Of a stretch of DNA of 64,000 nucleotides, positions 58,685 to 59,923 are shown piece after piece. The stretch's first letter is position 1; the number at the start of each line of letters is the position of its first letter. The DNA is from Planctomycetota bacterium. GTDB taxonomy: Bacteria > Planctomycetota > UBA8742 > UBA2392. The notes beneath the pieces are model-generated. The model ran no database searches and was not told where the DNA came from. It was given only the letters and a program-made list of their open reading frames with translations. Position numbers and translations under genes: made by a program. Location of the stretch: the NCBI GenBank assembly GCA_020849795.1, contig JADZFR010000022.1:62879-126878 (forward strand), read 5' to 3'.

Positions 58685-59923
58685 TCAATCAGCTTCCGGG
58701 CTCCAATCGAGATAGCGCTGCATGTCGGCCGGACTGGTGACCGGCTTGATCATGGTTGCCGCGCGCTCAAAGTCTTCGGCAAGCAGCGCACGGACTTTGA
58801 CTTGGTAGCTCTGGGTTGCCTTCAATCCGCTGTCCAGGATTTCCGGCAGGTCGGCATTGAGTTCACCCAGCATTTGGCTGGTGGCCTGCTTGCAAAGGCG
58901 CTCAATCTCACGGCCAGAGTAGCCTTCCGTGATGCCAATCAGCTGCTGCAGGACGTCGCCTGCCACGTGATACCCCTTGCGTTCAAGCTGGATGCGCAGA
59001 ATGGCGCTGCGGCTTTCCGGGTCGGGCAATGGGATCAGGATCTGCTTTTCAAAGCGCGACATGACGGCGGCGTCGATGTCCCATGGGCGGTTGGTCGCGG
59101 CGATCGTGAGCACAAAGATGTCGCTGCGCCCCTTTTCGCTCAGTCCGTCCATCTCAGCCAGGATCGTTGACAGGATGCGGCGTTCGGCGCCGGACTGCTC
59201 GCCGGAGTCGCGTGAGGTTGTCAGGCTTTCAAACTCATCAAGAAAGACGACGCTGGGCGAATTGTCGCGCGCCGCGCCGTAGATTTCGCTGATGATCTTG
59301 CTGCTTTCGCCGAAATACTTGCTCAGCACGCTGCTGACCTTCACGTTGAAAAACAGCGCCTGGCCCTCGGTCGTAACCTTCAGGCTGTTGCTCGTCGCCG
59401 CTGCCAGCAGTGTCTTGCCGGTGCCCGGCGGCCCGTAGAACAGGATGTTGCGAAAAGTGGTGATCTTCACTTCCGCCGGCGGCTTGGCCAGCGACAGCCC
59501 AAGCGTGTACTTGATGTCGCGCTTCGTTTCATCCAGCCCGCCGATGTCGTCCCACGTCAACGTGCTGGTGTGGATCAACTGGCTTACGGTCTCGCTGATG
59601 CTGCGGTCGGTTTCGCCGGCTCCGGCTTCCTGCGTGCGGTCCTCATCGACGCTGGTACTGGGTGGCGGCGGCAGTTTGCCGCCTTTGGCCTGCTCAGCCG
59701 CTGTGTCACGCAGGCGCTTTGCAAAGTCGCGGTACTCGATGGCCTTGCGCTTGCGCGCGTACTCCATGCTGCGCGAAGTCGCGTACTCGGCGTACTTGAA
59801 CATGGACTTGCTGGCCGCCTCGAAGTGGCCGGCCGCGGTGTCGGAATCGCCGGCCTTCCAGGCCATCTTGGCCTTGTGCAGCGAGTCTTCGCAGGAGCGT
59901 TTGAGTTTGCCGCTAAGGTCCAT
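58685..59923 (-). CDS. Vps4/CdvC-type AAA+ ATPase with N-terminal MIT-like domain
   Basis: N-terminal three-helix MIT-like region (residues ~10-75), then a Pro/acidic linker. Walker A ILFYGPPGTGKT. Pore loop KYFGES. Walker B VVFLDEFESL followed by SRDSGEQSGAERRILSTILAEMDG. SRH AATNRPWDIDAAVMSRFEKQILIPLPD. Vps4_C-like end DFERAATMIKPVTSPADMQRYLDW. Confidence 0.85.
   Translation of the reverse strand: MDLSGKLKRSCEDSLHKAKMAWKAGDSDTAAGHFEAASKSMFKYAEYATSRSMEYARKRKAIEYRDFAKRLRDTAAEQAKGGKLPPPPSTSVDEDRTQEAGAGETDRSISETVSQLIHTSTLTWDDIGGLDETKRDIKYTLGLSLAKPPAEVKITTFRNILFYGPPGTGKTLLAAATSNSLKVTTEGQALFFNVKVSSVLSKYFGESSKIISEIYGAARDNSPSVVFLDEFESLTTSRDSGEQSGAERRILSTILAEMDGLSEKGRSDIFVLTIAATNRPWDIDAAVMSRFEKQILIPLPDPESRSAILRIQLERKGYHVAGDVLQQLIGITEGYSGREIERLCKQATSQMLGELNADLPEILDSGLKATQSYQVKVRALLAEDFERAATMIKPVTSPADMQRYLDWSPEAD

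What the first reader, a model, noticed from the sequence alone, without database searches (positions are those of the whole stretch)
58685..59923. Vps4/CdvC-like MIT-AAA ATPase with the double-arginine SRH tract reduced to MSR
Motifs read directly from the ORF:
- Walker A: GPPGTGKT.
- Pore loop 1: KYFGES (Vps4 has KWLGES).
- Walker B: SVVFLDEFESLTTSRDSGEQSGAERRILSTILAEMDG (yeast Vps4 has [36 protein letters not shown]).
- SRH: AATNRPWDIDAAVMSRFEKQILIPLPD (Vps4 has [27 protein letters not shown]).
- C-terminal DF..A...IKP.TS..DM.RYLDW, like the Vps4 C-terminal helix region.
- N-terminal ~75 residues that form a three-helix pattern like an MIT domain, joined by a Pro-rich/acidic linker.

At the position where Vps4, spastin and katanin carry RRR/LRR (the arginine fingers, as I recall), this protein has M-S-R. 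It may therefore have unusual inter-subunit catalysis, or my by-eye alignment may be off by a few residues.
Basis: partly seen in the sequence, partly recalled or inferred. Interest (0 to 1): 0.85.

Follow-up and report, generated by a model that had tools for sequence, protein, structure and literature searches.

The report
Bacterial Vps4-like ATPase with ESCRT-III neighbours
A Planctomycetota bacterium carries an archaeal-type Vps4 membrane-remodelling ATPase next to ESCRT-III-like genes, a pairing that recent reviews say is absent from bacteria, and in its whole clade one of the two catalytic "arginine fingers" is a serine while an arginine appears at a different active-site position.

Summary
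ORF 58685-59923(-) encodes a 412-aa protein with an N-terminal MIT domain, a Pro/acidic linker, one classic AAA cassette and a Vps4-type C-terminal helix.

- **MIT domain:** the AF2 model has pLDDT 95. The top Foldseek hits are VPS4A/B, yeast Vps4 and Sulfolobus CdvC MIT domains, TM 0.7-0.8.
- **M-S-R:** S289 sits where Vps4 has its first arginine finger, and R290 (the second finger) is invariant.
- **Not a private defect:** x-S-R-F is fixed in every bacterial orthologue and in the nearest euryarchaeal Vps4-like proteins. It always co-occurs with an Arg (R338) at the "GAD" alanine, the sensor-2 position that classic AAA proteins normally leave without Arg.
- **Neighbours:** the downstream gene (57121-57726) is a Snf7/ESCRT-III homologue. 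It stays adjacent to the ATPase in Planctomycetota, Chloroflexota and Desulfobacterota, and lies within about 2-3 kb in Lentisphaerota. One upstream coiled-coil gene probably has the ESCRT-III fold; the other is unproven.
- **Tree:** a rough NJ tree places the bacterial ATPases inside the archaeal Vps4 radiation, apart from Cdc48.

Best reading: a horizontally acquired bacterial ESCRT-III/Vps4 module with a variant active site. This is a new variant of a known kind. Its cellular role is unknown.

The parts
58685..59923 (-). Vps4-like MIT-AAA ATPase, 412 aa
   Evidence: ORF. Pfam AAA E=1.9e-34. NCBIfam CdvC model matched over positions 83-364 of 370, 150 bits, below its cut-off. Groups with archaeal Vps4/CdvC in the NJ tree.
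59684..59923 (-). MIT domain (residues 1-80), three-helix bundle
   Evidence: AF2 pLDDT 95.1. Foldseek top hits are VPS4A/B, yeast Vps4, Sulfolobus CdvC and katanin MIT domains, TM 0.63-0.82, prob 1.00. The profile gives weak full-length hits to MIT chains.
59600..59683 (-). Pro-rich/acidic flexible linker (residues 81-108)
   Evidence: Read from the sequence. Length and sequence vary across the family alignment.
59411..59434 (-). Walker A GPPGTGKT (164-171)
   Evidence: Invariant in alignment A4.
59303..59320 (-). Pore loop 1 KYFGES (202-207)
   Evidence: K202, Y203, F204, E206 and S207 are at least 90% conserved and G205 is invariant.
59228..59251 (-). Walker B VVFLDEFE (225-232; D229, E230)
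   Evidence: D229 and E230 are invariant.
59042..59101 (-). Sensor-1 N278 and second region of homology, ending M288-S289-R290-F291
   Evidence: N278, R290 and F291 are invariant; S289 is at least 90% conserved. x-S-R-F is found in 120/120 homologues and in all bacterial and nearest euryarchaeal loci.
58904..58924 (-). Lid motif GYSGREI with R338 at the sensor-2 ('GAD' alanine) position
   Evidence: R338 aligns with the Ala of Cdc48 GAD. It co-occurs strictly with x-S-R-F.
58703..58774 (-). C-terminal Vps4_C-type segment and helix (384-407)
   Evidence: Pfam Vps4_C E=0.0072, below its cut-off. Some orthologues carry a precomputed PF09336 hit. Aligns to the end of spastin and katanin chains.
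57121..57726 (-). Snf7/ESCRT-III family protein 'cc1', 201 aa from the ATG at 57726
   Evidence: Profile vs PDB: CHMP3 E=2.3e-5, Snf7 2.5e-4, CHMP2A. 20 of 22 orthologues hit Pfam Snf7. Adjacent to the ATPase across phyla. AGGAGA ribosome-binding site before the ATG.
57851..58660 (-). Kdo/WaaP-family kinase inserted between the ATPase and cc1
   Evidence: Pfam Kdo E=4e-28. Present at this position only in the window's subclade. Membership of the system is inferred from position only.
59995..60612 (-). Coiled-coil protein 'cc2', 205 aa, probable ESCRT-III fold
   Evidence: AF2 pLDDT 76.6: long hairpin plus short helices. 21 of the top 50 Foldseek hits are ESCRT-III/Vipp1 structures, but E is 0.15-1.2. 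hhalign to cc1 gives E=0.004 at the hairpin tip, probability 8%. No Pfam or PDB sequence hit.
60736..61416 (-). Coiled-coil protein 'cc3', 226 aa, possible ESCRT-III-like, unproven
   Evidence: No PDB or Pfam hit. Weak hhalign matches to cc1 and cc2 at the same hairpin region. Conserved upstream of cc2 in Planctomycetota; the profile gives a weak hit (E=1.1e-6) to the gene at the matching position in Desulfobacter.
61416..62306 (-). Conserved protein of unknown fold (core from M39 at 62192); its stop overlaps the cc3 start
   Evidence: 58-97% identical in the window's subclade. No Pfam or PDB match.

Best explanation
This is a bacterial ESCRT-III/Vps4 module, most likely acquired from Euryarchaeota.

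**Proposed mechanism (inferred).** The 412-aa protein is a Vps4-family AAA ATPase. By analogy with Vps4/CdvC it would form a hexamer. Its N-terminal MIT domains would dock onto the C-terminal tails of the neighbouring ESCRT-III-like proteins: cc1 certainly belongs to the Snf7 family, cc2 probably has the fold, and cc3 possibly does. The pore loops (KYFGES) would thread those subunits out of membrane-bound polymers, driving turnover and remodelling of the cytoplasmic membrane.

**Active site.** It is a fixed variant of the Vps4 site. Vps4 uses two trans arginine fingers (RR before the conserved Phe). This clade keeps only the second (R290) and has Ser at the first (S289). An arginine (R338) occupies the lid position where classic AAA proteins have the Ala of 'GAD', which is the canonical cis sensor-2 position. 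I propose that the cis R338 takes over the role of the lost trans finger, so ATP is sensed by one trans and one cis arginine.

**Shown here:** domain identities, motif conservation, gene linkage and the covariation.

**Inferred:** hexamer formation, MIT-tail binding, polymer disassembly and the compensating role of R338. The cellular process served (vesiculation, repair or division) is unknown.
For: - **MIT fold:**, with weak sequence support.
- **Intact catalytic set:** Walker A and B, sensor-1, pore loop 1 and R290 are conserved across 24 diverse members.
- **Vps4-type C-terminus:**
- **Phylogeny:** Vps4-like sequences separate from Cdc48 D1/D2 (68% bootstrap). The bacterial sequences nest with the euryarchaeal x-S-R group, sister to TACK CdvC.
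- **cc1 is Snf7-family:**
- **ATPase-cc1 linkage:** adjacent, often with overlapping stop/start, in Planctomycetota, Chloroflexota and Desulfobacter; encoded within about 2-3 kb in Victivallales (L043) and in one uncultured bacterium that clusters with a Verrucomicrobiota orthologue (L031).
- **Upstream genes:** the gene at the cc2 position in Victivallales hits Pfam Snf7 weakly (E=0.0072, below the cut-off). The cc2 model and fold hits are ESCRT-III-like.
- **MIM1-like tails:** a loose C-terminal motif occurs in 16 of 22 cc1 orthologues against 9% of internal windows. Two orthologues match the strict consensus.
- **Co-transcription is plausible:** six same-strand genes with short gaps and no minus-strand terminator-like site.
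- **Covariation:** every x-S-R-F domain has G-R at the sensor-2 position. Every RR-F or RxxGR-F domain has Ser or Ala there, with rare Gly, Val, His or Lys and never Arg.
- **Literature:** the classic clade normally has Ala and lacks a sensor-2 Arg (PMC5039278).
- **Bacterial setting:** flanking genes include murD, a WaaP-like kinase, hflX and a sigma-54 activator. Near-identical loci lie on 3-4 Mb Planctomycetota contigs.
Against: - No biochemical or cellular data exist for any member.
- Single-sequence Pfam does not detect MIT. Vps4_C and Snf7 are below their gathering scores for the window's own proteins.
- Foldseek E-values for the MIT and cc2 matches are not significant on their own (0.03 to about 1). 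Helical folds match easily.
- cc3 has no detectable ESCRT-III signal.
- The window's own cc1 tail lacks even the loose MIM1 pattern.
- Tree supports are modest (47-68%), from NJ only, without eukaryotic or Asgard sequences.
- The covariation may reflect a single ancestral event, so it does not prove functional compensation. No hexamer model was made.
Confidence: 0.75

Rival explanations
1. A stand-alone AAA unfoldase or chaperone (Cdc48/PAN/SpoVK-like) working in general protein quality control. The coiled-coil neighbours would be functionally unrelated.
For: - NCBIfam scores for Cdc48 (173 bits) and PAN (163 bits) are as high as for CdvC (150 bits).
- Database names are generic, such as 'ATP-binding protein' or 'SpoVK/Ycf46/Vps4'.
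- cc2 and cc3 have no family assignment.
Against: - The N-terminus is an MIT domain, not a Cdc48-N or PAN coiled-coil/OB domain.
- The SRH lacks the PG insert of Cdc48/PAN.
- The Snf7-family gene stays linked to the ATPase across at least four phyla.
- The tree separates the family from Cdc48.
Confidence: 0.1
2. A catalytically crippled or regulatory pseudo-ATPase, because one arginine finger has been lost.
For: S289 replaces the first Vps4 finger. From general knowledge, single-finger mutations strongly reduce activity in Vps4, p97 and FtsH.
Against: - Walker A and B, sensor-1, pore loop 1 and R290 are invariant or nearly so.
- Ser is itself fixed in more than 250 AAA domains examined, together with R338. 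That is the pattern of a working variant under selection, not of decay.
Confidence: 0.05
3. The ATPase component of an anti-phage defence system (IetA- or TRIP13-like).
For: PADLOC IetA models match at 1.2e-33 and TRIP13 at 3.7e-20. NCBIfam IteA matches at 3.9e-32.
Against: - The scores are generic AAA-domain matches, far below the NCBIfam cut-off (112 bits against 510).
- No IetS protease or CBASS/HORMA partner lies nearby, and none of the neighbours hits PADLOC apart from weak kinase matches.
- The locus is syntenic in housekeeping context across species, unlike a defence island.
Confidence: 0.03

Closest known systems
Euryarchaeal Vps4/ESCRT-III systems. The nearest full-length relatives are Vps4-like ATPases of Methanocalculus, Methanosarcina and Micrarchaeota. 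Their assignment to the 'Main' clade of Makarova et al. 2024, PMC10936438, is my guess from taxonomy and was not checked.
   Same: - MIT-AAA-C-terminal-helix architecture, 37-41% identity over the full length.
- The same L-S-R-F SRH and SG-R-[DE] lid motif.
- Small helical genes lie next to the ATPase.
- A protein kinase occurs in some loci.
   Different: - The host is bacterial.
- My cc1/cc2/cc3 profiles found nothing in those archaeal loci at E<1, and Pfam did not recognise their adjacent small proteins.
- No winged-helix or adaptin-like partner could be identified here.
Crenarchaeal/TACK CdvC (Vps4) with CdvB (ESCRT-III) and CdvA
   Same: An MIT domain structurally similar to Sulfolobus CdvC MIT (2w2u, 2v6y), a single AAA cassette with a short SRH, and an adjacent ESCRT-III gene.
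   Different: - CdvC has [IL]-R-R-F and SG-S-D, that is two trans fingers and no sensor-2 Arg.
- No CdvA homologue was recognised among the cluster genes (Pfam scans).
- CdvC forms the sister clade in the tree.
Eukaryotic Vps4 (and its meiotic-clade relatives katanin and spastin)
   Same: MIT fold with TM up to 0.82 to yeast and human Vps4 MIT. Pore loop K-[YW]-x-G-E-S. C-terminal helix. The best single-domain PDB sequence hits are katanin and spastin.
   Different: - RR fingers in those proteins against S-R here; Ser or Ala against Arg at sensor-2.
- The region where eukaryotic Vps4 has its beta-domain is shorter here by eye and was not modelled.
- No Vta1 or ESCRT-I/II context.
Bacterial PspA/Vipp1 (ESCRT-III superfamily)
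   Same: Bacterial membrane-associated helical-hairpin polymers. cc2 fold hits include Vipp1.
   Different: cc1 matches the Snf7/CHMP branch, not PspA_IM30. PspA systems are reported to lack a Vps4-type ATPase (PMC7619361).
Bacterial 'VPS4-like AAA+ ATPase' transfers noted by Ravi et al. 2024 (PMC11237479 and its supplement)
   Same: They report archaea-to-bacteria transfer of a VPS4-like ATPase into Verrucomicrobia, Planctomycetes and other phyla.
   Different: They describe snf7 as displaced by a TPR+6TM protein. Here a Snf7-family gene is retained next to the ATPase. I could not test whether their example (ACB74714.1) belongs to this family.

Membership tests
Vps4/CdvC family | N-terminal MIT domain | tested here: met
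   AF2 pLDDT 95.1. Foldseek top hits are MIT domains of VPS4A/B, yeast Vps4 and CdvC, TM 0.63-0.82. Sequence level is weak only: profile E=0.03-0.15 to MIT chains, and Pfam MIT in 4 of 24 members.
Vps4/CdvC family | Single classic-clade AAA cassette with intact Walker A/B, sensor-1 and pore loop 1 | tested here: met
Vps4/CdvC family | Short SRH (no 'xG' insert) carrying two adjacent arginine fingers (RR before Phe) | tested here: not met
   The SRH length matches Vps4, but the first finger is Ser (M-S-R-F). This state is fixed across the clade.
Vps4/CdvC family | C-terminal helix (Vps4_C) | tested here: inconclusive
   Pfam Vps4_C E=0.0072, 16.7 bits against a 21.3 cut-off. Some orthologues carry PF09336. 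Aligns to the C-termini of spastin and katanin. Cdc48 D2 also aligns there, so the feature does not discriminate.
Vps4/CdvC family | Encoded next to ESCRT-III genes (criterion ii of Makarova et al. 2024) | tested here: met
   cc1 is Snf7-family and linked to the ATPase across phyla.
Vps4/CdvC family | Phylogenetic placement with Vps4, excluding Cdc48 | tested here: met
   NJ tree, 260 columns, 100 bootstraps: the Vps4-like clade has 68% support. Support is modest, and no eukaryotic or Asgard sequences were included.
Vps4/CdvC family | ATP-dependent disassembly of ESCRT-III polymers | not testable with these tools
   Needs biochemistry.
ESCRT-III (Snf7/CHMP) family: cc1 | Sequence-profile membership | tested here: met
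   Family profile vs PDB: CHMP3 2.3e-5, Snf7 2.5e-4. 20 of 22 orthologues hit Pfam Snf7, best 1.7e-7. The window's own protein scores only E=0.04, below the cut-off.
ESCRT-III (Snf7/CHMP) family: cc1 | C-terminal MIT-interacting motif | tested here: inconclusive
   A loose MIM1 pattern occurs in 16 of 22 orthologues and the strict pattern in 2. It is absent from the window's own tail.
ESCRT-III superfamily: cc2 | Alpha1-alpha2 hairpin followed by short helices (ESCRT-III fold) | tested here: inconclusive
   The model shows that helix pattern. 21 of the top 50 fold hits are ESCRT-III/Vipp1, but E>=0.15. hhalign to cc1 gives E=0.004, probability 8%.
ESCRT-III superfamily: cc3 | Any sequence or fold similarity to ESCRT-III | tested here: inconclusive
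   No PDB or Pfam hits. hhalign E=0.07-0.12.

The most novel reading that the evidence does not exclude
The cluster is a complete, working bacterial ESCRT machine: Vps4, up to three ESCRT-III paralogues, a kinase and an unknown partner. It would carry out membrane scission, possibly cell division or vesicle budding, in a lineage of Planctomycetota. From general knowledge that phylum lacks FtsZ and its division machinery is unknown; I did not verify this for the present genome. The ATPase would run on a re-wired active site in which a cis sensor-2 arginine replaces a trans arginine finger.
Probability: 0.12. Interest if true: 0.9.

Novelty: new variant of a known kind. Interest (0 to 1): 0.68.

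Why it matters
[quoted passage not shown] They also state that a Vps4-like ATPase appears absent from bacteria (PMC7619361). Here a MIT-AAA Vps4 homologue is linked to a Snf7-family gene in at least four bacterial phyla. Either ATP-driven ESCRT-III remodelling exists in bacteria, or these genes have been put to a new use. Either way there is now a tractable gene set to express and test.

**AAA mechanism.** The strict coupling between 'finger 1 is Ser' and 'sensor-2 is Arg' is a natural experiment on how AAA rings sense ATP. It spans hundreds of sequences, including bona fide archaeal Vps4-like proteins and giant multi-AAA proteins. It predicts clear mutant phenotypes for R290A, R338A and S289R.

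Tried and rejected
- **Single-sequence family scans.** Pfam and NCBIfam on the ATPase N-terminus gave no MIT hit. I needed a family profile and a structure model.
- **cc2, cc3 and the 296-aa ORF.** Profiles against PDB sequences found nothing meaningful. Pfam found nothing either. Homologue searches for cc2 and cc3 returned only unannotated Planctomycetota proteins. Deeper local hhalign runs did not raise significance.
- **Defence system.** Considered and rejected; only generic AAA matches to IetA and TRIP13.
- **Archaeal contamination or mis-binning.** Rejected. Neighbours are bacterial housekeeping genes, and the locus is syntenic on Mb-scale Planctomycetota contigs.
- **Taxonomic markers.** Rfam and tRNA scans of the window found nothing to place the organism more finely.
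- **Promoters and terminators.** The scan was uninformative apart from the absence of minus-strand terminators inside the cluster.
- **First tree attempt.** It timed out and was redone with a faster distance routine.
- **Literature.** Eight full-text searches found no description of a bacterial Vps4+Snf7 operon. The relevant part of Cavalier-Smith & Chao 2020 lies beyond the text held and could not be read.
- **Arginine covariation.** I first thought about 40 x-S-R domains lacked the lid Arg. That was a regex artefact; most of them carry G-R there too, and a few remained unmatched.
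Full report
**1. The observation**

The ORF 58685-59923 on the minus strand encodes 412 aa. All quoted motifs are present:
- Walker A, residues 164-171
- KYFGES pore loop, 202-207
- Walker B, 225-232
- SRH ending M288-S289-R290-F291
- a Pro/acidic linker, 81-108
- the C-terminal DF...RYLDW segment, 384-407

Pfam AAA scores E=1.9e-34. Against PDB sequences the highest totals are two-domain Cdc48/p97 chains. 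Per domain, the best match is katanin p60 (164 bits, residues 118-408) against 148 bits for Cdc48 D2. The feature is real.

**2. The N-terminal domain**

Single-sequence Pfam sees no MIT. A 24-member N-terminal profile gives weak but full-length, in-register hits to several independent MIT structures:
- VPS4B 1wr0, E=0.034
- VPS4B 2jqh, E=0.07
- chitin-synthase MIT 2mpk, E=0.031
- Sulfolobus CdvC MIT 2w2u, E=0.15

Four members hit Pfam MIT, best E=0.0046. An AF2 model of residues 1-81 built from 29 sequences has pLDDT 95.1 and three helices.

Foldseek against the PDB returns almost only MIT domains. These include VPS4A 1yxr (TM 0.79-0.82, rmsd 1.5 Å), VPS4B, yeast Vps4 4niq (TM 0.82), CdvC 2w2u and 2v6y, katanin p60 N-terminus, MITD1 and NRBF2. 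E-values are about 0.03-0.3, as expected for a 70-residue helical domain, and probability is 1.00. I take the MIT fold as established.

**3. The AAA module and its family**

The organism is a Planctomycetota bacterium. Loci 98% identical lie on 4.1-Mb and 128-kb Planctomycetota MAG contigs. The window carries murD, a WaaP-like kinase, hflX, a sigma-54 activator and other bacterial genes.

Full-length orthologues occur in these groups:

| Group | Identity to the window protein |
|---|---|
| Many Planctomycetota MAGs | 50-98% |
| Anaerolineae/Chloroflexota | 44-46% |
| Verrucomicrobiota | 42% |
| Victivallales | 37% |
| Desulfobacter latus | 41% |
| Nearest archaea: Methanocalculus, Methanosarcina, Micrarchaeota | 37-41% |

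I built an NJ tree (260 columns, 100 bootstraps) of these sequences plus TACK CdvC (fetched) and Cdc48 D1/D2.
- All Vps4-like sequences separate from Cdc48 (68%).
- TACK CdvC forms one branch.
- The euryarchaeal and bacterial sequences form the other (51%), with the bacteria monophyletic (47%).

Supports are modest, and no eukaryotic or Asgard sequences were available. The SRH has the short Vps4 form without the 'PG' insert of Cdc48. The SRH+lid+C-terminus fragment aligns end to end with spastin and katanin at 66 bits, against 39 bits over the first 80 residues for p97 D2.

**4. The M-S-R point**

Counting back from the conserved Phe, S289 corresponds to the first and R290 to the second of the two Vps4 fingers; the Vps4 numbering is from my own knowledge. 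HMMER aligns 'AAVM--SRFEK' to Cdc48 'PAILRPGRLDQ'.

This is not a private lesion. The motif [LMI]-S-R-F occurs in:
- 120 of the 120 best homologues
- all bacterial loci and the nearest euryarchaeal Vps4-like genes
- about 106 AAA domains among the 149 cluster representatives whose sequences were available, out of the 150 listed

R290 is invariant and S289 is at least 90% conserved in a 24-member alignment spanning both domains of life. By contrast TACK CdvC has [IL]-R-R-F, Halomicrobium has R-R-R-F, and Cdc48 has RxxGR-F.

**5.

In every x-S-R-F domain the lid motif reads G-R: SG-R-[DE] in the Vps4-like proteins, and [SGA]-G-R-x in the giant multi-AAA proteins. Here that residue is R338 in GYSGREI.
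- Every RR-F domain has Ser there, with one His.
- Every RxxGR-F domain has Ala, or rarely Ser, Gly, Val or Lys.
- No RR-F or RxxGR-F domain has Arg there.

R338 aligns with the Ala of the Cdc48 'GAD' motif. According to PMC5039278, AAA-family members generally have Ala at the sensor-2 position and the classic clade lacks a sensor-2 Arg.

I therefore propose that this clade exchanged a trans arginine finger for a cis sensor-2 arginine. The caveat is relatedness. The pattern could stem from one ancestral event, with a possible joint reversal in Halomicrobium. It shows coupling and long-term retention, not proof of compensation. No hexamer model could be made.

**6. The neighbours**

Six genes lie on the same strand with short gaps and no minus-strand terminator-like site. 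In order of transcription:

| Gene | Coordinates |
|---|---|
| Unknown 296-aa protein | 61416-62306 |
| cc3 | 60736-61416 |
| cc2 | 59995-60612 |
| ATPase | 58685-59923 |
| Kdo/WaaP-family kinase | 57851-58660 |
| cc1 | 57121-57726 |

*cc1* belongs to the Snf7/ESCRT-III family.
- Its start is most likely the ATG at 57726, which has an AGGAGA site upstream.
- A 22-member profile hits CHMP3 (2.3e-5), Snf7 (2.5e-4) and CHMP2A in the PDB.
- 20 of 22 orthologues hit Pfam Snf7, best 1.7e-7.
- It is adjacent to the ATPase in the divergent Planctomycetota, Chloroflexota and Desulfobacter loci, often with overlapping stop and start. In Victivallales (L043) and in one uncultured bacterium that clusters with a Verrucomicrobiota orthologue (L031) it is encoded within about 2-3 kb.
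- Its orthologues end in a MIM1-like amphipathic motif: a loose pattern in 16 of 22 against 9% of internal windows. Two match the strict consensus, for example EGRMGNRLDALR. The window's own tail is degenerate.

*cc2* has no sequence hit. Its AF2 model (pLDDT 76.6) shows a short N-terminal helix, a 40+47-residue hairpin, short helices, a linker and a C-terminal helix pair. Of the top 50 Foldseek hits, 21 are ESCRT-III-superfamily structures: CHMP2A/3, CHMP1B, Loki CHMP4-7, CdvB, CdvB2, Vipp1 and Snf7. CHMP3 3frv matches at 2.8 Å over 94 residues. E-values are only 0.15-1.2. The gene at the cc2 position in Victivallales hits Pfam Snf7 weakly at E=0.0072, below the cut-off.

*cc3* stays unassigned.

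The 296-aa protein matches nothing.

**7. Literature**

- Makarova et al. 2024 define Vps4 by an MIT domain or an ESCRT neighbourhood. [quoted passage not shown]
- A 2025 review says a Vps4-like ATPase appears absent in bacteria.
- Ravi et al. 2024 note transfers of a VPS4-like ATPase into several bacterial phyla, including Planctomycetes. They report that snf7 is replaced by a TPR+6TM gene.
- I found no paper describing a bacterial Vps4+Snf7 operon or the Ser/Arg active-site variant. One possibly relevant passage could not be read.

**8. Verdict**

The most likely reading is a horizontally acquired bacterial ESCRT-III/Vps4 module with a variant nucleotide-sensing arrangement. This is a new variant of a known kind, with unknown cellular role. 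A link to FtsZ-independent division in Planctomycetota is possible but unsupported here.

Noticed in passing
window 57851-58660 (-): A Kdo/WaaP-family kinase sits between the Vps4-like ATPase and the Snf7-like gene, but only in the window's subclade (L001-L012, L016, L025). In other lineages the two genes abut. Archaeal 'Main'-clade ESCRT loci also carry protein kinases (PMC10936438).
   Followed up: partly
window 61416-62306 (-): A conserved protein of about 258-296 aa (core from M39 at 62192) has its stop overlapping the cc3 start. It is 58-97% identical in related Planctomycetota and has no Pfam or PDB match. It occupies the position where archaeal ESCRT loci often encode a winged-helix protein.
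   Followed up: partly
L029:7785-8945, L030:4146-5288, L032:3056-4174: Chloroflexota loci encode a second MIT-AAA-Vps4_C ATPase directly after the Snf7-like gene. This one has the classical RPGR SRH and an SGAD lid. One Snf7 gene is therefore flanked by two MIT-AAA ATPases with different arginine arrangements.
   Followed up: partly
P0344-P0347, P0353, P0434: Among the best cluster representatives are giant proteins of about 1200-2350 aa with 3-6 tandem AAA modules of the same 'x-S-R plus G-R at sensor-2' subtype.
   Followed up: partly
window 48255-49382 (+): A protein matching Pfam baeRF_family10 (bacterial archaeo-eukaryotic release-factor-like), E=2.9e-28.
   Followed up: no
window 62265-64000 (+): An MsbA-like ABC exporter (transmembrane domain plus the start of the nucleotide-binding domain) is transcribed divergently from the cluster and runs off the window end.
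   Followed up: no
window 34148-36064 (-): A sigma-54 enhancer-binding protein with an N-terminal FHA domain.
   Followed up: no
window 50265-51932 (+): An aspartate/ornithine carbamoyltransferase ORF whose catalytic domains begin only at residue 221. Either the listed GTG start is too far upstream or there is an unassigned N-terminal extension.
   Followed up: no
L045 (Halomicrobium katesii): In the NJ tree this RRR/SGSD Vps4-like protein falls inside the otherwise uniform x-S-R/SG-R group. That is either a joint reversal of both positions or a tree artefact.
   Followed up: no
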